From Rhodobacter sp. (GTDB taxonomy: Bacteria; Pseudomonadota; Alphaproteobacteria; Rhodobacterales; Rhodobacteraceae), in NCBI GenBank assembly GCA_027490955.1, contig JAIXXB010000032.1:60102-124101 (forward strand): a stretch of DNA of 64,000 nt, written 5' to 3'. The notes under the pieces are model-generated. The model was given only the letters and a program-made list of their open reading frames with translations. It had not been told where the DNA came from and searched no databases. This document shows positions 3 through 11,576 of the stretch, one piece after another. Each line of letters starts with the position of its first letter. Within the stretch, counting starts at the first letter, position 1. Both the position numbers and the translations under genes were made by a program.

Positions 3-317
3 CTGAACCCCCGCACGGGCGAAGTCTTGCGCGATGTCTTGCTTATCGCCAATCTGCAAGAGGGCGCAGCAAAACGCAGTGGCATCTCCTCTCGCAGCAC
101 GGGTGCCAGCGGCGGATCGGGGCCGTCGGGCGGTTCGGCTTCGGGCGGCGCTGGATCATCGAGCGATGACGACGACGACGACGATGATGATGATGACCGT
201 GACAATGAAGACGAGGATGACGACCGCGACGACGAGGACGATGATGCGGAGGATGACGATGACGACGACGACAGCGGCAAAGGCCGCGGTCGCGGTCGTG
301 GGGGCGATGATGACTGA
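3..317 (+). CDS. C-terminal part of a PepSY-like secreted protein with Gly/Ser linker and poly-Asp tail (5' end outside window)
   Basis: The frame from nt 3 reads LNPRTGEVLRD, matching VNRNTGEILRD in the paralog at 1663-2160. It is followed by a G/S linker and a D-rich tail ending DDDSGKGRGRGRGGDDD. Confidence 0.75.
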   Translation: MNPRTGEVLRDVLLIANLQEGAAKRSGISSRSTGASGGSGPSGGSASGGAGSSSDDDDDDDDDDDRDNEDEDDDRDDEDDDAEDDDDDDDSGKGRGRGRGGDDD

Positions 318-340
318 CCGATCTTTGCTTTGGGTGTGAT

Positions 341-880
341 GTGCGCAAACCGATCTTTATCGCAGTGATCTTGATCCTTCAGATTCTGTGCGCTTTGTTC
401 TTTGTGTCTGACATTCTTTCTGCATTCTTTGGGTTTTCCACCACGCCCTTGCCATGGGAAATTCGCGAAGTGATGGAAATCTTCGCGGCCTTTGGATTGG
501 TTGTTGGCGTGGTTTTGGGCGCTGTTTTGCTGCGTATCGCTACATCAGATCGCCGCCGCGCCGAATTGCAACTGCGCCGCGCCTCTAGCGCGTTTATGCA
601 GCTTTTGGCCGAAAGAATGGCCGAGTGGGGCCTAACCCCCGCCGAAAGGGACGTGGCCTTATTCGCAATCAAAGGCATGTCCACCGCCGAAATCGCTGCC
701 CTGCGCGCCACGTCCGAAGGGACGATCAAGGCGCAGACAAATGCGATTTACCGCAAAGCGGGCGTGACTGGCCGCGCGCAGTTGATCTCGCTTTTCATTG
801 ATGATCTGGTGGACAAAGATGCGGGCCTGCTGCCACAGGAACCTGCCAGCCCTTCGAAAGATGCCGCGGCCTTGGGATAA
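341..880 (+). CDS. Membrane-anchored LuxR-family HTH regulator (2 TM helices + LuxR HTH)
   Basis: Two hydrophobic N-terminal segments, then LTPAERDVALFAIKGMSTAEIAALRATSEGTIKAQTNAIYRK (LuxR HTH). No receiver domain. Confidence 0.85.
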   Translation: MRKPIFIAVILILQILCALFFVSDILSAFFGFSTTPLPWEIREVMEIFAAFGLVVGVVLGAVLLRIATSDRRRAELQLRRASSAFMQLLAERMAEWGLTPAERDVALFAIKGMSTAEIAALRATSEGTIKAQTNAIYRKAGVTGRAQLISLFIDDLVDKDAGLLPQEPASPSKDAAALG

Positions 881-1112
881 GGCGATCGCGCCTGACCACA
901 GATGATTTTTGCGATCTAAACCCCGACATCATCCTGCACCAACTTTCGTTGATAGCTGCGATTTTCCCGCAGGTTTTGCGCCATAAACCTTTGAGGTATT
1001 GCAATCAACCTTTGGCAGATAGATCAATTGCGAAAATATAGGAAGTTACGCAGGCCAAGGGCAAAAGACCTGTGGTGATGCCTTGGCGTTCAATTGCAAT
1101 GGAGTATGTAAA

Positions 1113-1556
1113 ATGAAAACCCCTGTACTGACGCGGACTGTTCTTTTGGGCGGCGCGTGCCTTTTGTCGGCGATGTGGATATCCAGCGCCAGCTTTGCCG
1201 AAGATGCCCAGCCTTTGCCCGACGATGCTGTCGTGGATGCGGTTGACAATGCTGTGGTGGATGCGGTTGTTGAAACCTTGCCCGAAGCAGATGACGAGGG
1301 CGAGGTTACATTGGCCGAACCCGTGTCAGATTTGGTAGATGAAGAAGCCGTTCTTGTCATCGACCTAGACGATGAATGGATTGCCGATGCGCTGGCATCG
1401 GGGCAACAGTTTGAAATTGGCGCAACGGATGGATCCTTTGTTATTGGCACAACGGATATGGGCGCGAATTCTGATGAGAGCTCTGCCCATCTGACGCAAG
1501 AAGAATGCTTGCGCATGTTCCCAGACCGCGCCGAACTCTGCGCGACCTTTGAATAA
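1113..1556 (+). CDS. Hypothetical secreted acidic protein
   Basis: GGAG RBS at 1101-1104 and ATG at 1113. Signal-peptide-like N-terminus (..ASFA|ED), very D/E-rich body, C-terminal Cys pair (ECLRMFPDRAELC). Confidence 0.7.
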   Translation: MKTPVLTRTVLLGGACLLSAMWISSASFAEDAQPLPDDAVVDAVDNAVVDAVVETLPEADDEGEVTLAEPVSDLVDEEAVLVIDLDDEWIADALASGQQFEIGATDGSFVIGTTDMGANSDESSAHLTQEECLRMFPDRAELCATFE

Positions 1557-1662
1557 GGTTTAACGTTATGGGCGCTGGCATATTCGCCTAAAGGTGGATT
1601 AAGCTTTCGGCATGTGGAATCGCGGCCAGTGCCCATATCTATTCTGCGATTGGGGGGGTGAA

Positions 1663-2160
1663 GTGAAATCAGTTATTGGGGGCCTCGTGCTGATCTTTGG
1701 CATGGCCAATGCGTCTTGGGCGCTGAGCACGGAAGAAAAATTTGTGGTCGGCTTACAGGCCCAAGGGTTCACAATTGTTGAACGCGAAAAAACCTTTTTT
1801 GGCCGCCTCAGGATCATTGCTGAAAACGAAAAAGTGCGCCGCGAGATTGTGGTCAATCGCAACACGGGCGAGATTTTGCGGGACTATTCGGTGCTGCTGA
1901 CCGATCTTGCAGATGTGCATAGCGGCAGCACTGCGGGGCAAACCGCGACGGCAGATCACACAAACGATCGCGACAGTGCCTATGCGCTGCCTGCGCCCGC
2001 TGGTGGCGTGGTGGCCGCCTTTGGGCCAACATCGACTGCTGATGTCTATGTGGTGGAAAAACGGCGGGGTGCGAGCGGTGATGTGGACGAAGTTGTGATC
2101 TTCATCTCACCCGTCGATGTGTCCACAGTTGATGCCGTGCCTGTTGAAACTGATGACTAG
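1663..2160 (+). CDS. Secreted PepSY-like protein (paralog of the gene ending at 317)
   Basis: GTG start at 1663, signal peptide (..ASWA|LS), PepSY-like core LQAQGFTIVEREKTFFGRLRIIAENEKVRREIVVNRNTGEILRD, low-complexity acidic tail. Confidence 0.7.
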   Translation: MKSVIGGLVLIFGMANASWALSTEEKFVVGLQAQGFTIVEREKTFFGRLRIIAENEKVRREIVVNRNTGEILRDYSVLLTDLADVHSGSTAGQTATADHTNDRDSAYALPAPAGGVVAAFGPTSTADVYVVEKRRGASGDVDEVVIFISPVDVSTVDAVPVETDD

Positions 2161-2704
2161 GGCAAGCGTCTTTTTGGCCCTGCTGCTGGCCCAAGCGATG
2201 TGCGCTGCTTTCTTTTCATCTGATTTGCTGATGTCTGCATTGGGCATTTCTACCGCGCCCCTGTCATGGACAATGCGCGAATTGATGGAACTGGGTGCGT
2301 TGATTGGCCTGTTTTTAGGCATGGTCTTTGGCGGCATTTTGGTCTGGCGCGCCTTTCGCGATCTGTCGCGGGCCGAGCAGCAATTGCAGCGCGCATCCAG
2401 CGCCTTTGTTGATTTGATGAACACAAGATTTGGCGAATGGAACCTGACAAGCGCCGAGAGGGATGTGGCCCTGCTTGCCATCAAGGGTTTGAACGTGCAA
2501 GAGATCGCGCAATTGCGCAACACCAGCGAAGGCACTGTCAAATCGCAAACTGCACAAATCTATCGCAAAGCCGAGGTAACAGGCCGCCCACAACTGCTCA
2601 GCCTGTTTATTGAAGATCTGCTGGGGGTCGAGCGCGCCGCGCCAGCGGCCAGTTCAGCCAATATGCCGTTTAGCCCGTCTTTTCTGCGCGTAGGGCGGAA
2701 ATAA
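2153..2704 (+). CDS. Membrane-anchored LuxR-family HTH regulator, second copy
   Basis: ATG at 2153 overlaps the upstream stop. Same architecture as 341-880, with shared PLxWxxRExME and LTxAERDVAL..IKG..EIA.LR.TSEGT.K.Q...IYRKA motifs. Confidence 0.85.
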   Translation: MTRASVFLALLLAQAMCAAFFSSDLLMSALGISTAPLSWTMRELMELGALIGLFLGMVFGGILVWRAFRDLSRAEQQLQRASSAFVDLMNTRFGEWNLTSAERDVALLAIKGLNVQEIAQLRNTSEGTVKSQTAQIYRKAEVTGRPQLLSLFIEDLLGVERAAPAASSANMPFSPSFLRVGRK

Positions 2705-2752: not shown

Positions 2753-3139
2753 TCAGCGCGAAATCGCGTAACGCTGCAATATCTCCAGCGGGACAACCGC
2801 TAAAGTGGCGATATGCGTGGCGGCCAAATTGACCTGCGGGGCCGCGCCTTCCTCATGCGCTTGTAGGAACCGCGCCGCGCAAAGACACCAGCGATCCCCT
2901 GCCTTTAGCCCTGCAAAGCCATATTCGGGGCGCGGGGTGGACAGATCGTTGCCAAGGTATTTTGACAGGGCCAAAAACTCATCTGTCATGATCGCGCAGA
3001 CCGAATGCAAACCGCCATCCATATGGCCAGTGTTGCAGCAGCCATCGCGGAAATAGCCTGTCATAGGTGCGGTCGAGCAGGTTTCCAGCGCCCCGCCCAG
3101 CACGTTGGTCGAGGGAAACATCGCGTCAGAAATAGCCAT
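2753..3139 (-). CDS. DUF2237 family protein
   Basis: NVLGGALETCSTAPMTGYFRDGCC and GDRWCLCAARF motifs are typical of DUF2237. ATG overlaps the upstream TAA (TAATG). Confidence 0.85.
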   Translation of the reverse strand: MAISDAMFPSTNVLGGALETCSTAPMTGYFRDGCCNTGHMDGGLHSVCAIMTDEFLALSKYLGNDLSTPRPEYGFAGLKAGDRWCLCAARFLQAHEEGAAPQVNLAATHIATLAVVPLEILQRYAISR

Positions 3140-4047
3140 TAAAACACCTGTGAAAAGCGGGGGGGAAGGCGGTAAAGTTCTTTTGTGCGTCCGCCGCCCC
3201 AAAAGGCGACTTTGCCATCGTGTAAAAGTTGCTGGCCATCGATCATCTTGGCGCGAAATTCGGGCAGCGCGATGTCTTCGCGCACAGGAACGCCGCTGGC
3301 CAGCGCCTTGAAATTTTCCAAATCTTTTCCCCAAGCATGGCCCACATCTTTCGGGTCTTTCTCGCCTGTCATGATATCGCGCATTTCCCGCCGCCCCGCC
3401 AGCCTTGCGCAGGTGATATCATAGTCAAAAAAGCGCAGATGGATCAGGTAAAGATGTGGGTCAAGAACGCGGGGCAGATGGTTGTTGGCATGTCCACCGA
3501 TGGTAAAGGCGACATCGCGGCGCATCACGCAGGGCTTGGCGTAATTGGCATTGGCGCGAAAGACACGGCGGCGCGATAGGATGGTGGCATCGTCTGTGAT
3601 CGGGTCTGTTTCCACCTCGGGATTGTGAATCAGTTCTATCGCAAAGGGGCAGAGCGATTTGGGCACATCGCGCCCCTCATAGCGCCGCATGTAAGTGATC
3701 AGATCAGGGGCAATGTCGGGGTCGACCACCACCACCTCATCGACATCGCCTACAAAAAGCCAATTGTAATAGCGCAGCATGCCGCTGGCGAATTGGGAAA
3801 TAAAGGCCCAGCGGCGGCGGTCTAACCGAAACATCGTCGGGTCGCGTGGCAGGGTGATGATGTTGCACCCCGCGCCGATGCGGGCATGTTCGGCGTCACC
3901 CCCATGTGAAAGGATATACAGATGCTGGCGGCCAAATTGCGCGCCGTAATGGCGCACCCAGCGTTCGAGAAAAAAGTAATCCTGATAGGCCATCGTGATG
4001 GCCCCGCAGGGTACTTTGGTAGGGTCCATGATGCCGCGCTCTGCCAT
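3139..4047 (-). CDS. Glycosyltransferase family 2-like protein (Glyco_tranf_2_4 type)
   Basis: FLERWVRHYG, YILSHGGD, VGDVDE (DxD) and NYAKPC motifs. Paralog of 6581-7471. Confidence 0.75.
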   Translation of the reverse strand: MAERGIMDPTKVPCGAITMAYQDYFFLERWVRHYGAQFGRQHLYILSHGGDAEHARIGAGCNIITLPRDPTMFRLDRRRWAFISQFASGMLRYYNWLFVGDVDEVVVVDPDIAPDLITYMRRYEGRDVPKSLCPFAIELIHNPEVETDPITDDATILSRRRVFRANANYAKPCVMRRDVAFTIGGHANNHLPRVLDPHLYLIHLRFFDYDITCARLAGRREMRDIMTGEKDPKDVGHAWGKDLENFKALASGVPVREDIALPEFRAKMIDGQQLLHDGKVAFWGGGRTKELYRLPPRFSQVF

Positions 4048-4056
4048 GCCGCCCTT

Positions 4057-4704
4057 TTAGCGTGAAGAGAAGAACCCTTGCAACATCGCCGAAAACTGGG
4101 CGTTGTCATAGCTGCGCGGTGTCACGTCAAAGCGCACCATGCGCCCGCGCGTCTCGGCAATGGGAAACCAAGCCTCGGCCATAGAATACAGCGAATTTTC
4201 ACGGCCGACATAATCGTCCCACAGCACAGTTACGGGGCGGCGTGTGTTGAGGGCCGTGGCCAAAAAGCAGCCCAGCCGAAAGCGCCCGTCAATCAGCACA
4301 AGATCAGGGTCGATCCGGCCCGCCTCTTGCCAAAAGGCCATGGGATAGGCCCAATAGCGCCGCCAATCATTATGGTTGGCAGGCATGCCCCATTCGCGGG
4401 TTTTGCCGATATTGGCGTGGCGAATATCGATGCTCGGGCGCATGACACCCGCGCGCGTCAGCGTATCGATCAGATTTGCCGCCCATTTTGCGTCGCTTTC
4501 AATCGACACGATCGGCGCGCGAGAATGGCAGGCAGCATAGGCCGTAGATCCGCCCGATCCATATTCCAAAATCGCTTTGGCGCGGCGGTAATGGTCTTGC
4601 ACCCAATCCCTTTCCACCTGCGGCATCGACATTTCTGGCAAGGCTACGGCAGGGTCAGGTAGGGGCAAATCTGGCAAGGTCTTGGCTTTTGGGCGGCTGG
4701 CCAT
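4057..4704 (-). CDS. Putative class I SAM-dependent methyltransferase-fold protein
   Basis: ILEYGSGGST (motif I), IVSIESD, DLVLIDGRFR and LWDDY motifs. Start uncertain (4737 or 4704). Confidence 0.6.
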   Translation of the reverse strand: MASRPKAKTLPDLPLPDPAVALPEMSMPQVERDWVQDHYRRAKAILEYGSGGSTAYAACHSRAPIVSIESDAKWAANLIDTLTRAGVMRPSIDIRHANIGKTREWGMPANHNDWRRYWAYPMAFWQEAGRIDPDLVLIDGRFRLGCFLATALNTRRPVTVLWDDYVGRENSLYSMAEAWFPIAETRGRMVRFDVTPRSYDNAQFSAMLQGFFSSR

Positions 4705-4864
4705 GTCATTATCCTTGGGCGCAGGTCTTTTGGGCAAACTTTGCGCAAAAATCGCCCCCGCGCAACCATCTGTTTCTTAAAATGAAACAATTCCCTTTCT
4801 TGCAGCCAAAGACTATCTTGGGCAGAATAGAGACAGACCAGTGTATCGGGGTAAGGGGCAATTC

Positions 4865-5611
4865 GTGCTGACAATCGCGCAATCTGTGCCGAAAGCCTGC
4901 CTTTTGGGCGGCGAAGGGCAAAGTCTTGCGGCCGCAGTTTTGGCCAGTGGCGGGTTGTGGTTTTGCGCCCATACCGATGAGGTGCTGATCGATGGCGATG
5001 CAATCACAGGCTGGCGCGCCCGCGTGGGCACTCATGCATTGCGGCCAACTGTTCCCAATACGGGTGGAACAGTGTTTGATACCGCATGTCCAAGTTTTGT
5101 TTTGCAAACGGGTGTGCATTGCGGTTTCACCTTACCAAATGCGGTGAAAAAGCTGGGCCAATTTACCGCCGCTGTGATTTTTGCAGCCCCCGATGATGAT
5201 ATTCGCAGCCTGTTTGCCCTAAACACAGGCCCTGCAAATGAGATGATTTTTCTGTCCGAGGCAGAGGGCCAGATTTTTGCCAAGGATCGCGCAGGCGGCG
5301 TGGCCGTTTATTTGCCTAGCCCCCAGCACCGCAGTCGCCGCTGGCGTATGGCGATTTTGTCCTACACGGGGCGGCAATTGCACCTGTGGGCCGATGGTGC
5401 AAGCGCGGTTGGCACTGGCGTGGCCTTGGGGATGGATGGGCCTGCCGATATGTTTGTCGGATGCAGGTCGAACCGCGCAGGCCTGTCCAAAACGCTAGGT
5501 GCGGGCCGCATTCGTGATGTGCTTTTTTGGGATAAGCGCGCGCTGTTGGCCGAAGACAACAGCACTGAATTGGCTGCGCTGCACCGCTACTTCCGCTGGA
5601 CAACCGCATGA
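4865..5611 (+). CDS. Hypothetical protein, possible concanavalin A/LamG-like beta-sandwich
   Basis: Long ORF whose stop overlaps the next start (ATGA at 5608-5611). FTAAVIF, WRMAILSYTGRQLHLWADG and FVGCRS resemble a LamG-like strand pattern (inference). Start uncertain (4841 or 4865). Confidence 0.55.
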   Translation: MLTIAQSVPKACLLGGEGQSLAAAVLASGGLWFCAHTDEVLIDGDAITGWRARVGTHALRPTVPNTGGTVFDTACPSFVLQTGVHCGFTLPNAVKKLGQFTAAVIFAAPDDDIRSLFALNTGPANEMIFLSEAEGQIFAKDRAGGVAVYLPSPQHRSRRWRMAILSYTGRQLHLWADGASAVGTGVALGMDGPADMFVGCRSNRAGLSKTLGAGRIRDVLFWDKRALLAEDNSTELAALHRYFRWTTA

Positions 5612-6576
5612 GCGATGAAGTCCCCCTCAGCCTGCCGCCGCAGGTGCAACTGTCCAGCGCCGCGCCAGAGGGTCGGTTTTTGGTGTTGGGGCAAGGGGCG
5701 CTGGCAGGGGCGAACCTGTGGTATGAACCCAGCGCGGGTATCGGCCCCCATGGGCGCGATTTGATCATCAGCTTTGACAACCTTGCCACCATTGACGAAG
5801 GCTGGCCGCGCGGGCCTTGGGCCTATCGCCGCCTTGCGCCGATTGGGGCGGCGGTCTTGGGTGTGCAAAGCCATGGCAAAGATTGGTTTCGCTGCACGGG
5901 CGCGCCCGATATGTTGCGCACCCTTGCGGCGCAACATTTTTTCGACGGGTTCGCCAATATCGTGATGATCGGCGCATCCATGGGCGGGTTTGCTGCGCTG
6001 AACTTTGCCCCGCTTGTGCCGCGCGCGCGCGTGATTGCGCTGTCGGCGCAAACCTCTATGTCCAAACATATTGCGCCCTTTGAGGCGCGCTTTCCCTTTG
6101 CCGTGCGTAAATCGAACTGGGAGGCGCAGCCATTTTTGGATGCGGCCGCAGCTATTGCCTATATCCCTGCCGTGGCCCTGCTATATGATCCGTTCACGCC
6201 CGAGGATCGCGCCCATGCCGCCCGCATGGCCGCGCCCCATGTGCAGGCCATTCGCCTGAACCATGCCACGCACGAGGCCATCCGCGTGGTGATGAAGGCA
6301 GGTGCATTTCAGGGATTGGTGCAGGATATGCTGGCGCAAGGGCGCGTAACACCCGCCTTTTGGGCGCAGTATCGGGCGCGCAAATCTGTGCCAAAATGGC
6401 AAAAATCGCTGCTGTTTACTGCCCTAGAGCGGGGGCATTATCGCGGCGTTTTGCGCGGTGCAAATCAGGTTTTGGCCATGGGTTTGGAATCGGGCCTTGC
6501 CGAAGAGGAATTGGTCTTTGCCCGCCGCGCGCGGCGCGAGGCGCTGCGCCATTTGGATGCAAAGGCGGCGGAATAG
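5608..6576 (+). CDS. Alpha/beta-hydrolase-fold protein of a polysaccharide locus
   Basis: Nucleophile elbow IGASMGG, with DLIISFDNL, LLYDP and HATH motifs. Translationally coupled to the upstream gene. Confidence 0.7.
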   Translation: MSDEVPLSLPPQVQLSSAAPEGRFLVLGQGALAGANLWYEPSAGIGPHGRDLIISFDNLATIDEGWPRGPWAYRRLAPIGAAVLGVQSHGKDWFRCTGAPDMLRTLAAQHFFDGFANIVMIGASMGGFAALNFAPLVPRARVIALSAQTSMSKHIAPFEARFPFAVRKSNWEAQPFLDAAAAIAYIPAVALLYDPFTPEDRAHAARMAAPHVQAIRLNHATHEAIRVVMKAGAFQGLVQDMLAQGRVTPAFWAQYRARKSVPKWQKSLLFTALERGHYRGVLRGANQVLAMGLESGLAEEELVFARRARREALRHLDAKAAE

Positions 6577-6580
6577 GCAA

Positions 6581-7471
6581 ATGGACACAACCCGCGCAGC
6601 GATGATGGCAATGACAATGGTGGGCGGCGACCATTTCTTTTTGCGCCGCTGGGTCGAATATTATGGCCGCCAATTGGGGCGCGAGAATTGCTATGTCCTT
6701 TCACATGGCGGCGATCCCGAACACAAGAAAATCGCCGAAGGCTGCAATGTGATCTACCTGCCCTATGATCCCACGCGCGATTGCTTTAATCAGCGCCGCT
6801 GGCAAATGCTCTCGCGCCTCACGTCGGCATTTACCAGCTTTTACAATTGGGTTTTGGTGGGCGATGTGGATGAATTGGTGGTGGTCGATCCTGCCGTCTC
6901 GCCAAGCTTGCGCGATTATGTCGCCGCGATAAACCCTAAAGGTGGGCCAAAGGTGCTGACCCCCTTTGCCATTGAAATGGTTCATACGCCCGAGTCAGAG
7001 CCCGAAAAAATCAGCGATGATCGCAAAATCCTTTCGGTGCGGCGCAATTTTCGCCTGAATGCCAACTATGCAAAGCCCTGTATCACCGCAACGAATATAG
7101 ACATCGTTCCGGGCGGGCATTTTGCCAGCCATCCCCACCTGCATCTGGATCCGCATCTTTACCTGTTTCACCTGCGCTTTATCGATTACGATCTTTGCGC
7201 AGCCCGCCTTGCCACCCGCCGCGCCCAACGCGAAATTCAAAGCGGCGCTCTCGAGGAAGTTACCCGCGAAAAGACGGGCTGGGATACAGCTTGGGATACC
7301 TATATCAGCATCTGCAAACAAAAACCCATTCGCGAAGATGTCGAGTTTGCCGATTTTCGTGCCGAGATGAAGGCAGGCTGGCGCGTGAAGAAAGATGTGT
7401 ATTGGGCGCCAGGTGGCGCGCGGCCAAAGGGGCTGTATTCGCTGCCCCCGCGATTTGCAGAGGTGTTTTAG
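6581..7471 (+). CDS. Glycosyltransferase family 2-like protein (Glyco_tranf_2_4 type)
   Basis: FLRRWVEYYG, YVLSHGGD, VGDVDE, NYAKPC and DPHLYLFHLRF motifs. ATG 4 nt after the previous stop. Confidence 0.75.
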   Translation: MDTTRAAMMAMTMVGGDHFFLRRWVEYYGRQLGRENCYVLSHGGDPEHKKIAEGCNVIYLPYDPTRDCFNQRRWQMLSRLTSAFTSFYNWVLVGDVDELVVVDPAVSPSLRDYVAAINPKGGPKVLTPFAIEMVHTPESEPEKISDDRKILSVRRNFRLNANYAKPCITATNIDIVPGGHFASHPHLHLDPHLYLFHLRFIDYDLCAARLATRRAQREIQSGALEEVTREKTGWDTAWDTYISICKQKPIREDVEFADFRAEMKAGWRVKKDVYWAPGGARPKGLYSLPPRFAEVF

Positions 7472-8905
7472 ATGGCCGATCCCGCAAAAACAGGCGTGAT
7501 CATCCGCGCGGAAAATGGCGATGTGATTGGCTGGGATGACACGGGGCTGACGCTGCATCTGTCTGACCGCGTGATTGCCGATATCGCAGCGCGCCTTGAT
7601 TTGCCACAGGTTGCTGCGCCGCACGCCGCCCCTGATCTTGTGCCATTGGGCGATGATATCGACGCGTGGGATGTTCAGATGCGCGGCGACTGGCTGCATT
7701 TCACCGCCAATTTAGCGGGGGCTGACGGCACGCGCGGCTATATGCGCCACAAAGATGATGCGACAATATTGGCGGCAAGTCATCTGCCCGTCATGGGTAT
7801 CTTTGCGCTGGGCGGCGCGCGTGCGCAGCTTGGCCAACCACTGCACACGCGCTTTCCCTATCATCTGTTCGCCCCTGCCGATGATATTGGCGCAGCGGGC
7901 ATGGGCGGGCTGGGCGAGGCAATCTTTACCCCCAAACTTTTGCCCATCCGCGAGATGACGCATGAGGCGCTTTTGGCCGAAACTTTGCTGTCTTTGCGCA
8001 AATCGGCGGGGGCGGGGCTGCCCTTGTTTGTGCTGCGTGCGGAAACCGATCTGGCAGCCAGCGCCGCCGATTTGGGCAAAGGCGCGGCCATGGGAAATTT
8101 TGAAAAAGCCCTGCAAAACCATGCCGCCGCCGCCGCCCGCCTTGGCCGACCTGCCAAAGTTGCGGCTGTGTGTTTGGATTACTGCCTAGAGGATATCTTG
8201 GGCGATGCGGCTGCTTACCGCGATGGGATCATGGCCGTGATGGCGCAAATCACCCAATATCTGGGCCGCCTAGGTGCGCCGCGCCCCATTTTCCTTGCGG
8301 GGTTTGATTGCGGCACGCAAACCATCACAACAGGCGCGGCGCTAGAGGGGCAGTGGGAATTGTCATGGAACCATGGCGATCATCCGCTGGTCTGCACGGG
8401 GCCAAGCTATGCCTATGCGATCGACGACACGGGCCGCCTGACTGATATTGGCCAGCGGACAAAGGCCGAGATGTCGGCGCATGCCCTTTTGGCAAGCGAA
8501 AGCGGTGCGGGCTGGCTTTGCCCAACCATCCAATTGGCTGAACGGCAGGGCCAAGACATTCGCCTGATCTGCAGCGCGGCAGAGGGGTTGGTGATTGATA
8601 CATCCGACCCCTTTGATGCGGGCAAGCAGGCGGGCTTTCGGCTTGATGGTGCAACCAACGGCGCCCAAATCACCGCAGTCGAGATCGACGCAAAAGACAA
8701 GCGTGCGGTGATCTTGCGCTGTTCGGCCCGCCCCGAAGGTGAGGTGTTTGTCGCCTATGCCCATGGCGCAGTGCCGCGCGCGCGCGCGCATGACTATCCC
8801 GCCAATGCAGGGGCGCTGCGCGATGAATGGGCCGCGCAGGGCACGCATGGCACGCTGCACCGCTGGGCGCTGCCCGCCCGATTGCGCCTGACGGATGGCG
8901 GCTGA
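7472..8905 (+). CDS. Hypothetical protein, possible degenerate SGNH/SASA-like domain
   Basis: 477-aa ORF abutting both neighbours (starts directly after the upstream stop; TGATG overlap downstream). Block spacing resembles SGNH acetylesterases, but the catalytic residues are not present. Confidence 0.6.
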   Translation: MADPAKTGVIIRAENGDVIGWDDTGLTLHLSDRVIADIAARLDLPQVAAPHAAPDLVPLGDDIDAWDVQMRGDWLHFTANLAGADGTRGYMRHKDDATILAASHLPVMGIFALGGARAQLGQPLHTRFPYHLFAPADDIGAAGMGGLGEAIFTPKLLPIREMTHEALLAETLLSLRKSAGAGLPLFVLRAETDLAASAADLGKGAAMGNFEKALQNHAAAAARLGRPAKVAAVCLDYCLEDILGDAAAYRDGIMAVMAQITQYLGRLGAPRPIFLAGFDCGTQTITTGAALEGQWELSWNHGDHPLVCTGPSYAYAIDDTGRLTDIGQRTKAEMSAHALLASESGAGWLCPTIQLAERQGQDIRLICSAAEGLVIDTSDPFDAGKQAGFRLDGATNGAQITAVEIDAKDKRAVILRCSARPEGEVFVAYAHGAVPRARAHDYPANAGALRDEWAAQGTHGTLHRWALPARLRLTDGG

Positions 8906-11214
8906 TGGGCTTTGATGCGGCCAGCATTGCGCGCGACAATATCGCCGTAATTTGGGTGGATGACATGATTGATGTCTTCACATGGCGCCATGCCTTTGGC
9001 ATCCCAATTCTGACACCTAACCTTGATCGGCTGATGTCGGCGGGTGTACGCTTTGGCAATGCCTATGCCACAGTGCCGCTTTGCGCACCTTGCCGCGCCG
9101 AACTCGCCACAGGTCTGTCGCCCTTTCGCACTGGGCTGGTGGATTTAAACCGCTTTTGGCGGCAGGTGCTGCCACCGCAAAAGGCATGGGCCTATGACCT
9201 GCGCCGCGCGGGCTTTTATACCTTTACCACGGGCAAGGTCGATGCCACCTATCGCCCTATGCCCGAAAAATACCGCCGAGTGCTGTTTCACGAAGATGTG
9301 CCCTGCGCGGATAAAAATGGGCGCAGTCGCATCAAAGAATATCTTGACCGCGGCCCGGGGATTAAGGGCGTCAACCACCCCAATGATGATGGGGCGCAAG
9401 ACCATCTGTTCTATGATTACGATGTGGCACAAAACGCCATAGACCTGTTGCAGCGCGCTGACCCCAGCCGCAGGCATCTGATTCAACTGGGGTTCAAACA
9501 TCCGCATTACAATCTGGAATGCCCCGACCGCTTTTATCAAATGTATGACGCGGCAGCTATCCGTTGGCCCGAAATCGCAGCAGCCGAAGATTACTATGGC
9601 CCCCAGCAGGGCTTTGCCGTCTATGAGGCCGCCTATATCGCCAATGGCAATTGGACGCCTGAAAAAGCAGGCGATGAAGGCTGGCGGCAAGTGGTGCGTG
9701 CCTATTTTGCCGCCGTCAGCCATGTTGACCATGAAATCGGGCGGTTTTTGGATGCGCTTGCCGCATCGCCCTTGGGCGATAACACCACTGTGATTTTTCT
9801 GTCTGACAATGGCTTTAACCTTGGCAACCACGACAGCTTTCATAAAATGAGCCAATGGGACAGCGCAGCCCATGTGCCACTGGGTATTTATTCGCCGCGG
9901 ATGGGCGGGCAGGGGCGGGTGATTGATACCCCCGTATCCCTGCACAATTTCGCCAAAACTGTGATGCAACTGGCAGGCCTGCCGCCGCGCCCCGATTGGG
10001 TGTCAGGACAAAGCCTGCTGCCGCTGATCGATGCCAGCTTTGGGTCATATGATTACAGCAAATCGCCCGTCACGTCGGTTTTTGGCACGTTGTCAGTGCG
10101 CCCTTCGGTGGCGGGCTATCAGCAATATCGCTATTTCCGCTATCCCAATGGCGAGGAGCATATCTATGACATCGTCGCCGATCCGGGCGAGACGACGAAT
10201 CTTGTGGCCTCTGCCCCGCTCGAGTTTTTGCGCAGCGAATTGGTGCGCGGCGCGCTGGACTTGGGGCTGGATTTGCGCGGGTTTGAAAACCCCGCAGATG
10301 GGGTCAATGCGATGATGGCTGTTGACGGGTCGGTGGTGCTGGAAGGCACGCGCGGCGGTGACAGCTATTGGGCCTATGGCGCCGATGCCGAGAAAATCCG
10401 CGAGTCCAAAGACGGCGGCAATGACACGCTGTGGTATATGGGCGGGCCTGACAATTATGTGCTGCATTGCCCGATGAATGTGGAAAACATCCGCATTGCG
10501 ACAGTGGTCGCGCGGCACGAAACCAACCCAAAGGACGAAGGCCGCACCCTGCGCATCGTCGCCCATCCCGACAGCCCCATCCATTTTGAAACATCCGAGA
10601 GGGTTCTTGTGGATGTGCGCGGATCGCGCGGGGATGACGTGCTGATTGGCCCCAAATATGGCGGGGCTACATTTTACGGCGGGGATGGGGATGATCGCCT
10701 GATTGCCATCGCCAAACTTCCCACCGCGCGCCATGCGTTTTATGGCGGTGCGGGCAATGACCATCTGCAAGGCGGCGGCGGGCGTGATGTTCTGGATGGT
10801 GGCACAGGCGACGATACGATTTATGCAGGGGATGCGCGCAATGTGATCTTTGCAGGCCATGGCAATGATTGGATCGAAGGGGGGGATGGCTCTTCGGTCA
10901 TTCACACAGGGCCGGGCCGAAACCGCGTCAAGCTGGGCCGCGGTAATGACACGCTGCACATTGGCACAGGTGTTTCCCATGTTGCGGCAGCGGGCGGCAA
11001 CACCGTCTTTGTGCCTGCCTATGGCGGCGTGACGCTGGTGGATAAATGGGCGGCGGGGCAGGTCTATGATTTCAGCACTTGGCCTGCGCGCCCGCAGATG
11101 ACGCGACACGGCGATGTGGCCGAATTCACCTTGGGCCTGTCGATCTTGCGGGTGATGGGGGTGGCTGAAGGGGCAGATGTGATGGGGCAGGCCAAATGGG
11201 GCGAGGGCGGCTGA
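8905..11214 (+). CDS. Formylglycine-dependent sulfatase fused to C-terminal RTX (hemolysin-type Ca-binding) repeats
   Basis: VDDM metal motif, LCAPCRAELATG (CxPxR), TPNLDRL, SDNGFNLG and HVPL motifs. C-terminal GGxGxD nonapeptides (GGDGDD, GGAGND, GGGGRD, GGTGDD, AGHGND). No signal peptide. Confidence 0.85.
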   Translation: MGFDAASIARDNIAVIWVDDMIDVFTWRHAFGIPILTPNLDRLMSAGVRFGNAYATVPLCAPCRAELATGLSPFRTGLVDLNRFWRQVLPPQKAWAYDLRRAGFYTFTTGKVDATYRPMPEKYRRVLFHEDVPCADKNGRSRIKEYLDRGPGIKGVNHPNDDGAQDHLFYDYDVAQNAIDLLQRADPSRRHLIQLGFKHPHYNLECPDRFYQMYDAAAIRWPEIAAAEDYYGPQQGFAVYEAAYIANGNWTPEKAGDEGWRQVVRAYFAAVSHVDHEIGRFLDALAASPLGDNTTVIFLSDNGFNLGNHDSFHKMSQWDSAAHVPLGIYSPRMGGQGRVIDTPVSLHNFAKTVMQLAGLPPRPDWVSGQSLLPLIDASFGSYDYSKSPVTSVFGTLSVRPSVAGYQQYRYFRYPNGEEHIYDIVADPGETTNLVASAPLEFLRSELVRGALDLGLDLRGFENPADGVNAMMAVDGSVVLEGTRGGDSYWAYGADAEKIRESKDGGNDTLWYMGGPDNYVLHCPMNVENIRIATVVARHETNPKDEGRTLRIVAHPDSPIHFETSERVLVDVRGSRGDDVLIGPKYGGATFYGGDGDDRLIAIAKLPTARHAFYGGAGNDHLQGGGGRDVLDGGTGDDTIYAGDARNVIFAGHGNDWIEGGDGSSVIHTGPGRNRVKLGRGNDTLHIGTGVSHVAAAGGNTVFVPAYGGVTLVDKWAAGQVYDFSTWPARPQMTRHGDVAEFTLGLSILRVMGVAEGADVMGQAKWGEGG

Positions 11215-11576
11215 CCGCCTATTGTGTCACGCGCGGGCATAGTCGCGGCGCAACAGCCGCCAAATGTTTTGGCTCAGTTTTGCGGGCGCATATCCGCAAA
11301 GACAGTTTGGTTAACCCAGCGCGGTTCTGATCGGGCGACACCGCACCAGTCGGCTGGGTTTTGGAACATGGCGCGAAGTGGTAGCCCGATATCTTCGCAG
11401 CGAAAAGGCCCTTACCTGATTGAAGATCGCGAAGGTTTAAGGCGCGAAGAATGGGCGCAGATGATACCTTCGTCAGACAAGCCCAAACACTGGCATAAAG
11501 GCGTTAAGGGGTCAGGCGGGTGTCGCCCCCGCCCTTGGTGCTGCGATACGCGTATACAGCTGCGGCGTTGGGCGCG

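What the first reader, a model, noticed from the sequence alone, without database searches (positions are those of the whole stretch)
3139..11214. Divergent, tightly coupled putative glycan-modification locus of mostly uncharacterised genes
Seen in the sequence: a left arm (methyltransferase-fold, GT2-like, DUF2237) and a right arm (LamG-like, alpha/beta hydrolase, GT2-like, SGNH-like, sulfatase-RTX). Stops and starts overlap or abut (ATGA at 5608, 4-nt gap at 6576/6581, 7471/7472, TGATG at 8903-8907). No wzx/wzy/wzm or sugar-nucleotide genes are present. Inference: a stand-alone tailoring cassette that glycosylates, O-methylates, (de)acylates and desulfates a surface or environmental glycan. 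I do not recognise this combination as a described pathway.
Basis: partly seen in the sequence, partly recalled or inferred. Interest (0 to 1): 0.7.

Follow-up and report, generated by a model that had tools for sequence, protein, structure and literature searches.

The report
Conserved secreted-sulfatase glycan-editing gene cassette
The reported genes are a real, co-inherited cassette of the Rhodobacter family: a secreted calcium-binding sulfatase with two unnamed partner proteins and a changing set of sugar-adding and sugar-trimming enzymes, which most likely builds and edits a sulfated cell-surface sugar structure that nobody has characterised.

Summary

Corrections and additions:
- The DUF2237 gene lies just outside the stated range and is not part of the conserved unit.
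- The two glycosyltransferases (GTs) are 47%-identical paralogs.
- The 'SGNH-like' protein (here called Unk477, 477 aa) has the esterase fold of phage tail fibres but no catalytic serine.

Across 77 related loci and whole-genome samples of Paracoccaceae, the right arm is strongly co-conserved, even where gene order is rearranged. It consists of a LamG-like protein, an alpha/beta hydrolase (ABH), GT-B, Unk477 and the sulfatase-RTX.

Three cassette architectures exist. The invariant nucleus is Unk477 (or its C-terminal half) plus a Cys-type sulfatase with RTX repeats, joined by the LamG protein in types I and II. GTs, methyltransferases and hydrolases vary. The window carries a reduced type I cassette that has lost the usual GSCFA gene and its GDS(H)-motif partner.

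One relative has a carbohydrate sulfotransferase inside the operon. Two distant variants have a formylglycine-generating enzyme (FGE) next to the sulfatase.

Best reading (about 0.5): soluble GTs and a methyltransferase-like protein assemble a glycoconjugate without a dedicated flippase, as in LOS outer-core loci. The type I-secreted sulfatase and its lectin-like partners then edit it outside the cell. The target and the chemistry are untested.

Verdict: an uncharacterised new variant of a known kind. Interest is moderate.

The parts
2753..3139 (-). DUF2237 protein (128 aa). Its start overlaps the GT-A stop by 1 nt. It is a neighbour, not a core member.
   Evidence: Pfam PF09996, 1.2e-51. Found next to GT-A only in Cypionkella-level relatives. 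Junction CATTA at 3137-3141.
3139..4047 (-). GT-A: soluble GT-A-fold glycosyltransferase (302 aa) and paralog of GT-B.
   Evidence: Glyco_tranf_2_4 at 31.6 bits, cut-off 27.5. 47% identical to GT-B. Invariant DVDE (DxD) motif. Orthologs lie 2-18 kb from the right arm in relatives.
4057..4704 (-). SAM-methyltransferase-like protein of the 3cvo family, about 215 aa from ATG 4704 (the ORF is open to TTG 4737).
   Evidence: Profile hit to PDB 3cvo, 'methyltransferase-like protein of unknown function', 6.3e-65. Invariant ILEYGxGGST and IDGRFR motifs. Facultative partner.
4800..4828 (+). Promoter-like element in the 160-bp divergent intergenic region: TTGCAG, 17 nt, CAGAAT, about 36 nt upstream of the LamG start.
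   Evidence: Sequence read. The same CTTGC-N16/17-GCA(A/G)(G/A)AT pattern sits directly upstream of LamG in most related loci, even where another gene precedes it. Function is inferred. The generic scan did not list it.
4865..5611 (+). LamG/concanavalin-A-like beta-sandwich protein (248 aa from GTG 4865; alternative start GTG 4841), with no signal peptide.
   Evidence: No Pfam hit. AF2 pLDDT 91.2. Foldseek hits to agrin, laminin and neurexin LG domains and the trans-sialidase lectin domain, E about 1e-7. Present in type I and type II cassettes.
5608..6576 (+). Alpha/beta-hydrolase (322 aa) with a conserved Ser-Asp-His set.
   Evidence: Abhydrolase_6 at 8e-4, below the cut-off. Invariant G-A-S124-M-G, D194 and H222 in 26 orthologs. 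Fused to the Unk477 C-terminal half in type III cassettes.
6581..7471 (+). GT-B: soluble GT-A-fold glycosyltransferase (296 aa).
   Evidence: Glyco_tranf_2_4 at 37.9 bits, cut-off 27.5. 214 relatives, named only 'glycosyltransferase family 2' or hypothetical, all Rhodobacter-type. Absent from type II cassette genomes.
7472..8905 (+). Unk477: orphan protein with a phage-tail-fibre-esterase-like fold (SGNH/CE20-like core plus beta-sandwiches). It lacks the canonical serine nucleophile.
   Evidence: No Pfam or NCBIfam hit. AF2 pLDDT 87. Foldseek: cyanopodophage Pan3 tailspike 1.8e-18, XAC1771 CE20 esterase 2.5e-9, SIAE. Foldseek also hits viral esterases and tail fibres. Weak hit to phrog_4201 tail fibre, 2.6e-6. 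The block-I position is an invariant GGAR. Family: 310 representatives in 1.84 billion proteins.
8905..11214 (+). Cys-type (formylglycine) S1 sulfatase fused to C-terminal RTX repeats (769 aa). Predicted type I secretion substrate.
   Evidence: Pfam Sulfatase 6.3e-38 and HemolysinCabind 1.1e-13. CAPCRAELATG motif conserved in all orthologs. Nearest solved structures are choline sulfatases and carbohydrate sulfatases at about 1e-33. It is the most conserved cassette protein, 64-94% identity. A PrtD-type T1SS ABC transporter lies elsewhere in the genome.
11245..11273 (+). Two overlapping terminator-like hairpins just after the sulfatase stop.
   Evidence: Consensus scan only. The number of such sites in the region is not above the shuffled expectation.

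Best explanation
The window carries a reduced 'type I' copy of a Paracoccaceae-specific cassette.

Invariant nucleus. The nucleus is a secreted, Ca2+-binding, Cys/formylglycine-type sulfatase with a C-terminal RTX/type I secretion module. It comes with two dedicated partners: a LamG lectin-fold protein, and Unk477, a protein with the fold of phage tail-fibre carbohydrate esterases.

Variable shell. Around the nucleus sit soluble GT-A glycosyltransferases (here the paralogs GT-A and GT-B), a SAM-methyltransferase-like protein and a Ser-Asp-His alpha/beta hydrolase.

Proposed mechanism (inferred). The soluble GTs and the methyltransferase-like protein extend and decorate a glycoconjugate at the cytoplasmic face. 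They need no dedicated flippase or polymerase, as in lipooligosaccharide (LOS) outer-core loci. The glycan is sulfated by sulfotransferases encoded inside the cassette in one relative and elsewhere in this genome. After export, the RTX-sulfatase removes sulfate esters at the cell surface. It may be guided or assisted by the lectin-like LamG and tail-fibre-like Unk477 proteins and by the hydrolase. Together this would edit a surface glycan that phage-type receptor-binding domains also recognise.

Shown: gene content, folds, motifs, translational coupling, co-conservation, and the three architectures.
Inferred: the substrate, the location of the partner proteins, and every enzymatic step.
For: 1. 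Overlapping or abutting stops and starts across the five right-arm genes.
2. LamG, ABH, GT-B, Unk477 and the sulfatase-RTX co-occur in nearly all of 77 loci. This includes Roseobacter, Tateyamaria, Frigidibacter and Pseudaestuariivita, where the gene order is shuffled.
3. The loci are flanked by unrelated housekeeping genes, as in R. calidifons.
4. A type II architecture (GT2_4::MT, Unk477, LamG, sulfatase-RTX, GT32-like) occurs in six other genera, with no ABH and no GT-A/B.
5. A type III architecture has an ABH::Unk477-C fusion next to a sulfatase-RTX, together with GT25, GT2_4/GT92, methyltransferases and PAP2. The fusion is Rosetta-stone evidence that links the hydrolase to Unk477.
6. A Sulfotransfer_2 gene (PF03567, 4.5e-12) is translationally coupled within the operon of L050.
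7. A distant GT relative lies next to a Sulfotransfer_2 gene in L085.
8. This genome encodes PF03567 sulfotransferases on C2 (2e-33, next to a Branch/GT14 gene) and on C34.
9. A canonical FGE lies beside the type III sulfatase in two genera. The Cys motif is kept in 64 of 64 sulfatases. The sulfatase is therefore a working FGly enzyme.
10. The GT families seen across the variants (PF13704, PF01755, PF04488) are also among those listed for the flippase-less A. baumannii LOS outer-core locus (PMC10327509).
11. Unk477 matches phage tailspike and tail-fibre esterases by fold and by PHROG.
12. T1SS machinery is present in the genome.
Against: - No experiment or expression data exist.
- None of LamG, ABH, Unk477 or the GTs has a signal peptide (sequences). 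An extracellular role for the partner proteins would need non-classical export.
- Unk477 lacks the SGNH serine and may not be catalytic.
- A sulfotransferase lies inside the cassette in only 1 of about 80 loci.
- No LPS-core (waa) or capsule-export genes were seen next to any cassette examined.
- This genome has neither FGE nor an anaerobic sulfatase-maturing enzyme (anSME), so how the sulfatase matures here is unexplained.
Confidence: 0.5

Rival explanations
1. Protein-glycosylation island. The soluble GTs, the methyltransferase-like protein and the hydrolases modify the RTX-sulfatase itself, or other RTX cargo, in the cytoplasm before type I secretion. LamG and Unk477 would act as substrate-recognition or chaperone factors.
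For: All the enzymes look cytoplasmic, and no lipid-carrier, flippase or polymerase gene is present. A conserved cargo gene with variable GT/MT sets resembles flagellin glycosylation islands (own knowledge). The sulfatase-RTX is the most conserved and always the last gene. The genome holds many RTX proteins. In one relative a giant RTX protein lies next to the cassette.
Against: No glycosylated T1SS cargo of this kind is documented in the literature searched. No obvious Ser/Thr-rich or sequon-rich acceptor region is visible in the sulfatase. This reading does not explain the in-operon sulfotransferase or the phage-tail-fibre fold of Unk477.
Confidence: 0.17
2. Nutrient-scavenging exo-enzyme operon. 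The secreted sulfatase, with a lectin-like protein and esterase-like proteins, strips sulfate and acyl groups from environmental (for example algal) sulfated polysaccharides or organosulfates. The GTs would be co-located for unrelated reasons.
For: The nearest solved relatives are choline sulfatases, ulvan sulfatases and carrageenan sulfatases. The carriers are aquatic Rhodobacter-type bacteria. The fold matches are carbohydrate esterases.
Against: GT-B sits between ABH and Unk477 with gaps of 4 nt and 0 nt. GTs flank the nucleus in all three architectures. No glycoside hydrolase, transporter or sulfur-starvation regulator is conserved in the cassettes. The partner proteins lack signal peptides.
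Confidence: 0.15
3. LamG, the N-terminal half of Unk477 and/or ABH form an FGE-independent maturation or secretion-competence system for the Cys-type sulfatase.
For: This genome has two Cys-type sulfatases but no FGE and no anSME. In the one-genome-per-genus sample only 1 of 11 cassette genera has a strong FGE hit, against 104 of 190 others (Fisher p = 0.004). Type III cassettes lack LamG and the Unk477 N-terminal half, and two of them have FGE adjacent. Unk477 has two invariant cysteines.
Against: 19 of 30 further type I genomes do carry an FGE-family gene, so the anticorrelation is not general and is probably phylogenetic. The BetC-like sulfatase in the same genome also lacks a known maturase, which points to a general unknown route. 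There is no fold similarity to FGE.
Confidence: 0.05
4. Chance neighbourhood: unrelated genes that are merely packed tightly.
For: The left arm is only loosely linked. DUF2237 shows that 1-nt overlaps occur here without conserved linkage.
Against: The five right-arm genes stay together across more than 10 genera and through rearrangements. Fusion proteins and alternative architectures keep the same partners.
Confidence: 0.03

Closest known systems
Type I-secreted, RTX-bearing polysaccharide-tailoring enzymes (Azotobacter AlgE mannuronan C5-epimerases; Rhizobium PlyA/PlyB glycanases). Recalled from own knowledge, not tested here.
   Same: A catalytic carbohydrate-active domain is fused to C-terminal Ca2+-binding nonapeptide repeats. 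There is no N-terminal signal peptide. The T1SS is encoded elsewhere. The enzyme is presumed to act on a polymer after export.
   Different: The catalytic domain here is an S1 formylglycine sulfatase. No RTX-sulfatase turned up in the literature searches. It is locked to two orphan partner proteins and to soluble GTs rather than to an EPS export locus.
Lipooligosaccharide outer-core loci (e.g. Acinetobacter baumannii OCL, PMC10327509; Neisseria/Haemophilus lgt loci, own knowledge)
   Same: Sets of soluble GT-A glycosyltransferases of the PF13704, PF01755 (GT25) and PF04488 (GT32-like) families, with no wzx, wzy or ABC exporter. Gene content varies between lineages.
   Different: No waa or lipid A genes are adjacent. 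The cassette contains a secreted sulfatase, a LamG protein, a tail-fibre-like protein and an alpha/beta hydrolase, none of which those loci have. The acceptor is unknown.
Phage tailspike and tail-fibre SGNH carbohydrate esterases (Salmonella phage ViI adhesin, cyanopodophage Pan3 tailspike 9vyh) and CE20/SIAE esterases
   Same: The Unk477 model aligns to them: Foldseek 1.8e-18 to 9vyh, 2.5e-9 to XAC1771, viral hits, and phrog_4201.
   Different: Unk477 is a chromosomal, non-phage protein with no head-binding or trimerisation module identified. The block-I serine is replaced by an invariant GGAR. There are no sequence-level phage homologs in GenBank phages or IMG/VR.
Choline sulfatase BetC and carbohydrate S1 sulfatases (PDB 6fny, 6hr5, 6pt4)
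   Same: S1 sulfatase fold, CxPxR Cys motif and metal-binding residues.
   Different: Only about 28-30% identity. It carries about 300 extra C-terminal residues with RTX repeats. It scores far below the NCBIfam equivalog cut-offs: 179 bits against 481 for arylsulfatase, and 157 against 433 for choline sulfatase.

Membership tests
S1 (formylglycine-dependent) sulfatases | Sulfatase domain (PF00884) | tested here: met
   6.3e-38, 131 bits against a cut-off of 25. PDB relatives at 1.8e-33.
S1 (formylglycine-dependent) sulfatases | C/S-x-P-x-R-x4-TG signature carrying the residue converted to formylglycine | tested here: met
   CAPCRAELATG in the window protein. The Cys motif is kept in 64 of 64 cassette sulfatases.
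S1 (formylglycine-dependent) sulfatases | A known maturase (FGE or anSME) available in the same genome | tested here: not met
   No PF03781 hit and no TIGR03942 hit in the 95%-complete genome. FGE is present in 19 of 30 other carriers and adjacent in two type III cassettes.
S1 (formylglycine-dependent) sulfatases | Sulfate-ester hydrolysis | not testable with these tools
   Needs an enzyme assay.
RTX / type I secretion substrates | C-terminal GGxGxD nonapeptide repeats | tested here: met
   HemolysinCabind 1.1e-13 at residues 639-673 of the 795-aa ORF queried, i.e. about 613-647 of the 769-aa protein. Four GGxGxD matches.
RTX / type I secretion substrates | T1SS ABC transporter encoded in the genome | tested here: met
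   PrtD-type ABC at C29:50789-52399, 635 bits against a cut-off of 510, plus three HlyB-like genes. They are not linked to the cassette.
RTX / type I secretion substrates | Actual secretion | not testable with these tools
   Needs an exoproteome analysis.
GT-A fold glycosyltransferases, Glyco_tranf_2_4 (PF13704) / GT92-like | Pfam match above the gathering score | tested here: met
   GT-A 31.6 bits and GT-B 37.9 bits against a cut-off of 27.5. No NCBIfam model matches and there is no PDB sequence relative.
GT-A fold glycosyltransferases, Glyco_tranf_2_4 (PF13704) / GT92-like | DxD metal/nucleotide-sugar motif | tested here: met
   G-D-V-D-E is invariant in 14 sequences of both paralog groups.
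SGNH / CE20 / SASA carbohydrate esterases (for Unk477) | SGNH-type alpha/beta/alpha fold | tested here: met
   Foldseek hits to 7kmm, 8f9p, 9h4u and 9ega at 1e-6 to 1e-9.
SGNH / CE20 / SASA carbohydrate esterases (for Unk477) | Block I serine nucleophile (GDS / GQSN) | tested here: not met
   After strand 107-113 the sequence is an invariant G114-G115-(A)-R117. No conserved Ser, Thr or Cys is there in 28 orthologs.
SGNH / CE20 / SASA carbohydrate esterases (for Unk477) | Block V Asp-x-x-His | tested here: inconclusive
   Only a nearly invariant H304, preceded by a variable D/E/R. No structural superposition was available.
LamG / concanavalin A-like lectin fold | Jelly-roll beta-sandwich matching LG domains | tested here: met
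   pLDDT 91. 453 PDB matches at E <= 1e-3, led by agrin, laminin and neurexin LG domains. No Pfam hit.
Alpha/beta hydrolases | Nucleophile elbow G-x-S-x-G plus acid and His | tested here: met
   Invariant GASMG (S124), D194 and H222. The Pfam Abhydrolase_6 hit is below its cut-off, 20.5 against 26.3 bits.
Class I SAM-dependent methyltransferases | Rossmann-like MT fold with Gly-rich motif I | tested here: met
   6.3e-65 to PDB 3cvo, 'methyltransferase-like protein of unknown function'. Invariant EYGxGGST. Activity is unknown even for the solved homolog.
LOS outer-core-type assembly loci | Several soluble GT-A GTs with no wzx, wzy or ABC exporter | tested here: met
   The GT families match entries in the GT-family table of PMC10327509.
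LOS outer-core-type assembly loci | Linkage to lipid A/core (waa) genes, or a demonstrated LOS acceptor | tested here: not met
   No such neighbours in any locus examined. Only a PAP2 gene in one type III locus.

The most novel reading that the evidence does not exclude
The cassette is a dedicated cytoplasmic glycosylation system for type I-secreted cargo. Soluble GTs, with methyl and acyl tailoring, decorate the RTX-sulfatase before export. LamG and the tail-fibre-like protein act as cargo-recognition factors. That would be a new class of bacterial protein glycosylation tied to T1SS. A second unexcluded novel reading: the sulfatase trio is an extracellular 'sulfation-code' editor of the cell's own phage-receptor glycan.
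Probability: 0.15. Interest if true: 0.8.

Novelty: new variant of a known kind. Interest (0 to 1): 0.5.

Why it matters
Sulfated glycoconjugates and their turnover are well studied in animals and algae but hardly at all in free-living bacteria.

This cassette would be a compact, genetically tractable system in which a bacterium both makes and extracellularly desulfates a surface glycan. It uses an RTX-fused sulfatase, an architecture for which the literature searches found no description.

Three orphan protein families would gain a context: Unk477, the LamG-like protein, and the GT-A/B subfamily. Of these, Unk477 was checked directly and is annotated only as 'hypothetical'. Named GT-B relatives carry only the generic label 'glycosyltransferase family 2'.

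Unk477 shares its fold with phage tail-fibre esterases. That similarity suggests the edited structure could be a phage receptor. If so, the cassette bears on phage-host dynamics in abundant aquatic Rhodobacter-type bacteria.

This genome has two Cys-type sulfatases and no known maturase. That touches the old open question of a third sulfatase-maturation route.

Tried and rejected
1. DUF2237 and the LuxR genes as members. Rejected: they are adjacent only in the closest relatives.

2. MTfold as a core member. Rejected: the family is widespread (65 of 201 genera) and is missing from 5 of 11 cassette genera.

3. Cassette proteins as a replacement for FGE. A family sample suggested anticorrelation (p = 0.004). 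However, 19 of 30 further carriers have an FGE-family gene. Not supported.

4. Sequence-level phage homologs. tblastn of Unk477 and GT-B against 50,697 GenBank phages found nothing. The IMG/VR scan found nothing for Unk477 and one distant GT. The phage link rests only on fold and a weak PHROG hit.

5. The Y245 family as an antisense shadow of MTfold. Rejected: both occur side by side in L006.

6. A sulfotransferase-like ORF at C8:94526-95434. It sits inside the nuo operon, so it was not taken as a glycan enzyme.

7. PDB sequence-profile searches for Unk477, LamG, the GTs and ABH gave nothing useful.

8. My first two ORF callers (longest ORF, GC3) mis-called genes in these GC-rich loci. I used gene calls from the look-up of encoding contigs and tblastn instead.

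There is therefore no expression or co-transcription evidence.

10. Literature searches for an RTX-sulfatase, GSCFA, 3cvo and PF13704 found no functional study of this system.

11. One search was an empty script.

Full report

Yes. The ORF list and a direct reading of the junctions confirm every coordinate.

On the plus strand:
- ATGA at 5608-5611 (the LamG stop overlaps the ABH start).
- TAG-GCAA-ATG at 6574-6583 (a 4-nt gap before GT-B).
- TAGATG at 7469-7474 (GT-B abuts the next gene).
- TGATG at 8903-8907 (overlap with the sulfatase start).

On the minus strand:
- The methyltransferase-like gene ends 9 nt before GT-A starts.
- The GT-A stop overlaps the DUF2237 start by one base (CATTA, 3137-3141).

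No wzx, wzy, wzm or sugar-nucleotide gene lies between 2.7 and 11.3 kb. The flanks are LuxR-type regulators upstream and class II ribonucleotide reductase, DUF1489, HisG and HisZ-like genes downstream.

**2. What each gene is**

| Gene | Window coordinates | Evidence |
|---|---|---|
| DUF2237 | 2753-3139 (-) | Pfam 1e-51 |
| GT-A, GT-B | 3139-4047 (-), 6581-7471 (+) | Glyco_tranf_2_4 above cut-off; 47% identical paralogs; invariant DVDE motif |
| Sulfatase-RTX | 8905-11214 (+) | Sulfatase 6e-38 and RTX repeats 1e-13; CAPCR formylglycine signature |
| MTfold | 4057-4704 (-) | No Pfam hit; ortholog profile matches PDB 3cvo, 'methyltransferase-like protein of unknown function', 6e-65 |
| LamG-like | 4865-5611 (+) | No Pfam hit; AF2 pLDDT 91; matches laminin-G, agrin and neurexin domains |
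| Unk477 | 7472-8905 (+) | AF2 pLDDT 87; Foldseek and PHROG hits listed below |
| ABH | 5608-6576 (+) | Only sub-threshold Pfam hits; invariant GASMG serine, Asp and His |

The sulfatase's nearest solved relatives are choline and carbohydrate sulfatases. It scores far below the NCBIfam equivalog cut-offs.

Its best structural matches are:
- a cyanopodophage tailspike (1.8e-18), CE20 carbohydrate acetylesterases and sialic acid esterase;
- among viral models, tail-fibre esterases, a Rhodobacter phage RcapNL protein and the Salmonella ViI adhesin;
- a weak PHROG tail-fibre hit.

At the SGNH block-I position all 28 Unk477 orthologs read GGAR, with no serine. Unk477 is therefore either a non-canonical enzyme or a binding module.

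**3. Is it a unit?**

A scan of one genome per species fetched 77 loci from Cypionkella, Tabrizicola, Rhodobacter, Frigidibacter, Albidovulum, Roseobacter, Tateyamaria and Pseudaestuariivita.

- tblastn with the window proteins shows LamG, ABH, GT-B, Unk477 and the sulfatase-RTX together in essentially every locus long enough to hold them. This includes genera where the order and strands are shuffled.
- The sulfatase is the most conserved member (64-94% identity).
- In cultured Rhodobacter calidifons the unit sits between cytochrome bc1/DinB and TerC/chorismate synthase genes. It is an island, not part of a larger polysaccharide locus.
- A promoter-like CTTGC-N16/17-GCAAGAT element lies directly upstream of LamG in most loci. 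In the window it is TTGCAG-17-CAGAAT at 4800-4828.
- DUF2237 and LuxR are neighbours only in the nearest relatives.
- The 3cvo-like methyltransferase family is widespread (65 of 201 genera). It is present in only 6 of 11 cassette-bearing genera, so it is a facultative partner.

**4. The window holds a reduced variant**

Most loci carry two more genes upstream of LamG:
- a GSCFA-family SGNH protein, a family with no known function (PMC9487903);
- a protein of about 245 aa with an FGDSH block-I motif.

Both are absent from this genome and from its closest relatives L001-L004. Here GT-A and the methyltransferase-like gene sit divergently in their place.

Other recurrent partners are unlinked in this genome:
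- A GT32-like protein (270 aa in relatives) and a GT2_4::methyltransferase fusion (591 aa in relatives) sit in this genome as a two-gene unit among housekeeping genes on C39.
- A Rhamno_transf-like gene is on C4.
- A third distant GT paralog is on C42.
- A methyltransferase paralog is on C17.

**5. Three architectures reveal the nucleus**

I sampled one genome for each of 201 genera of the family. Full-length Unk477 occurs in 11 of them. A C-terminal-half-only match inside longer ORFs occurs in about 6 more.

| Type | Where | Gene content |
|---|---|---|
| I | The window and the 77 fetched loci | LamG, ABH, GT-B, Unk477, sulfatase-RTX; usually also GSCFA and the 245-aa partner; GT-A nearby or up to 18 kb away |
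| II | Six genera | GT2_4::MT, Unk477, LamG, sulfatase-RTX (62-71% identical to the window's), GT32-like. No ABH and no GT-A/B; the GT-A/B profile finds no close relative in those genomes |
| III | Four genera | A 720-850-aa protein with an ABH-like N-terminal domain fused to the C-terminal half of Unk477, next to a more distant sulfatase-RTX (about 28% identity). Accompanied by GT25, GT2_4/GT92, methyltransferase and PAP2 genes |

The invariant nucleus is therefore the RTX-sulfatase plus the Unk477 module, with LamG in types I and II. The glycosyltransferases, methyltransferases and hydrolases form a variable shell.

The ABH::Unk477 fusion is Rosetta-stone evidence that those two proteins work together.

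Unk477 is a narrow family:
- 274 clusters, those named all called 'hypothetical';
- 310 representatives among 1.84 billion proteins, many of them long fusions carrying only its C-terminal half.

**6. Evidence on chemistry**

All 64 cassette sulfatases keep the cysteine motif: CAPCRAE in types I and II, CGPSR in type III.

In two type III cassettes a canonical FGE is encoded next to the sulfatase. This argues that these are working formylglycine enzymes.

In an uncultured Roseobacter (L050) the operon reads GT-B, ABH, FkbM methyltransferase, Sulfotransfer_2 (PF03567, 4.5e-12), GT32-like, with overlapping stops and starts. That is a direct link between the cassette's glycosyltransferases and sulfation. 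It is the only locus with this gene.

A distant GT relative in an IMG/VR contig also lies beside a Sulfotransfer_2 gene.

The window's genome encodes two PF03567 sulfotransferases:
- C2:58879-59847, 2e-33, divergent from a Branch/GT14+DUF5928 gene;
- C34:83448-84273.

PF03567 hit none of the 14 control genomes. The genome also has a PrtD-type T1SS ABC transporter and three HlyB-like transporters.

The GT families found across the variants are PF13704, PF01755 and PF04488-like. All three families also appear in the GT table of the flippase-less LOS outer-core locus of A. baumannii (PMC10327509). This fits assembly by soluble GTs on a lipid-linked acceptor that needs no dedicated flippase.

**7. 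Most likely mechanism (inferred, confidence about 0.5)**

- Soluble GTs and methyltransferase-like proteins build and decorate a glycoconjugate at the cytoplasmic face.
- The glycan is sulfated by sulfotransferases encoded in or outside the cassette.
- After export, the type I-secreted, Ca2+-stabilised sulfatase removes sulfate at the surface, assisted by the lectin-fold LamG protein, the tail-fibre-like Unk477 and the Ser-hydrolase.
- The result is editing of a surface structure of the kind phage receptor-binding proteins recognise.

Weak points:
- None of the partner proteins has a signal peptide.
- Unk477 lacks a nucleophile.
- The acceptor is unknown.

**8. Rivals**

- **Protein-glycosylation island for the RTX cargo (0.17).** It fits the cytoplasmic look of all the enzymes and the pattern of a conserved cargo with variable GTs. 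It does not explain the in-operon sulfotransferase or the tail-fibre fold.
- **Scavenging exo-sulfatase operon (0.15).** It fits the sulfatase relatives and the aquatic hosts. It does not fit the embedded GTs or the lack of hydrolases and transporters.
- **Cassette-encoded, FGE-independent maturation (0.05).** It was suggested by the absence of FGE and anSME here and by 1 of 11 against 104 of 190 in the genus sample (p = 0.004). It was undercut when 19 of 30 further carriers proved to have an FGE-family gene. The BetC-like Cys sulfatase on C2 shares the same unexplained lack of a maturase.
- **Chance neighbourhood.** Excluded for the right arm.

**9. Relation to earlier notes**

A previous agent studied the seven-gene Tabrizicola-like version (e1-4296986). 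It reached a similar 'sulfatase-centred surface-glycan tailoring' reading, with a prophage tail-fibre link.

My work agrees on the core. It adds:
- the three architectures;
- the fusion evidence;
- the in-operon sulfotransferase;
- FGE adjacency in two type III cassettes;
- the missing serine in Unk477.

I could confirm the phage link only at the level of fold and PHROG, not by sequence search of phage collections.

**10. Verdict**

This is an uncharacterised, lineage-specific cassette, best described as a new variant of known kinds: T1SS-exported polysaccharide-tailoring enzymes combined with LOS-type soluble-GT loci. Interest is 0.5. The co-conservation is solid, there are several orphan families, and the hypothesis is testable in cultured non-pathogens. 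No mechanism is demonstrated.

Noticed in passing
G000 genome: window 8905-11214 and C2:43372-44394: The genome (95% complete) has two Cys-type sulfatases: the RTX-sulfatase (CAPCR) and a BetC-like choline sulfatase (CAPAR). It has neither FGE (PF03781) nor anSME (TIGR03942). How they mature is unexplained.
   Followed up: partly
L050:12542-13291 (uncultured Roseobacter sp. CANKZM010000005.1): A Sulfotransfer_2 gene (PF03567, 4.5e-12) sits inside the cassette operon between an FkbM methyltransferase and the GT32-like gene, with a 4-nt overlap. It is unique among about 80 loci.
   Followed up: yes
L087:7193-7936 (-) and L089:13158-14159 (+): Canonical FGE genes lie next to the ABH::Unk477-C fusion and the sulfatase-RTX in two divergent ('type III') cassettes of other Paracoccaceae genera.
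   Followed up: partly
G000 C2:57317-59847: A divergent pair: a Branch/GT14 + DUF5928 protein (525 aa) and a Sulfotransfer_2 protein (2e-33). It is a eukaryote-like glycan sulfation module, unlinked to the cassette. A second PF03567 gene is at C34:83448-84273.
   Followed up: partly
G000 C8:94526-95434 (-): A sulfotransferase-like ORF (weak Sulfotransfer_3 and Sulfotransfer_1 hits, GxxKxGTTW and RDP motifs) is inserted in the NADH dehydrogenase (nuo) operon between nuoC and nuoD.
   Followed up: no
window 4770-4800: An AT-rich stretch, TTCTTAAAATGAAACAATTCC, in the divergent intergenic region is conserved in the closest relatives (L001-L004, L006). It resembles a half CtrA-type TTAA-N7 site. 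It may be a regulator binding site.
   Followed up: no
L006:8241-9020; L057, L058 and L062 (Unk477); G022:C2:110255-111778: Some relatives have an in-frame stop in LamG or Unk477. This could be sequencing error or decay of the cassette in single lineages.
   Followed up: no
L083:13825-20897: In one marine relative a giant RTX protein (more than 4460 aa) starts immediately downstream of the cassette.
   Followed up: no
L082:14584-20613; G000 C31:12019-17976: In one relative the cassette is followed by inositol-monophosphatase-like, cytidylyltransferase, GT2, NTP-transferase, epimerase and GT4 genes. Their homologs form a separate cluster on contig C31 of this genome.
   Followed up: no
window 3-2704: Duplicated membrane-tethered LuxR-type regulators lie upstream (GerE hit at 341-880; paralog at 2117-2704; a third copy on C39). 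They are already the subject of another first-stage note.
   Followed up: no
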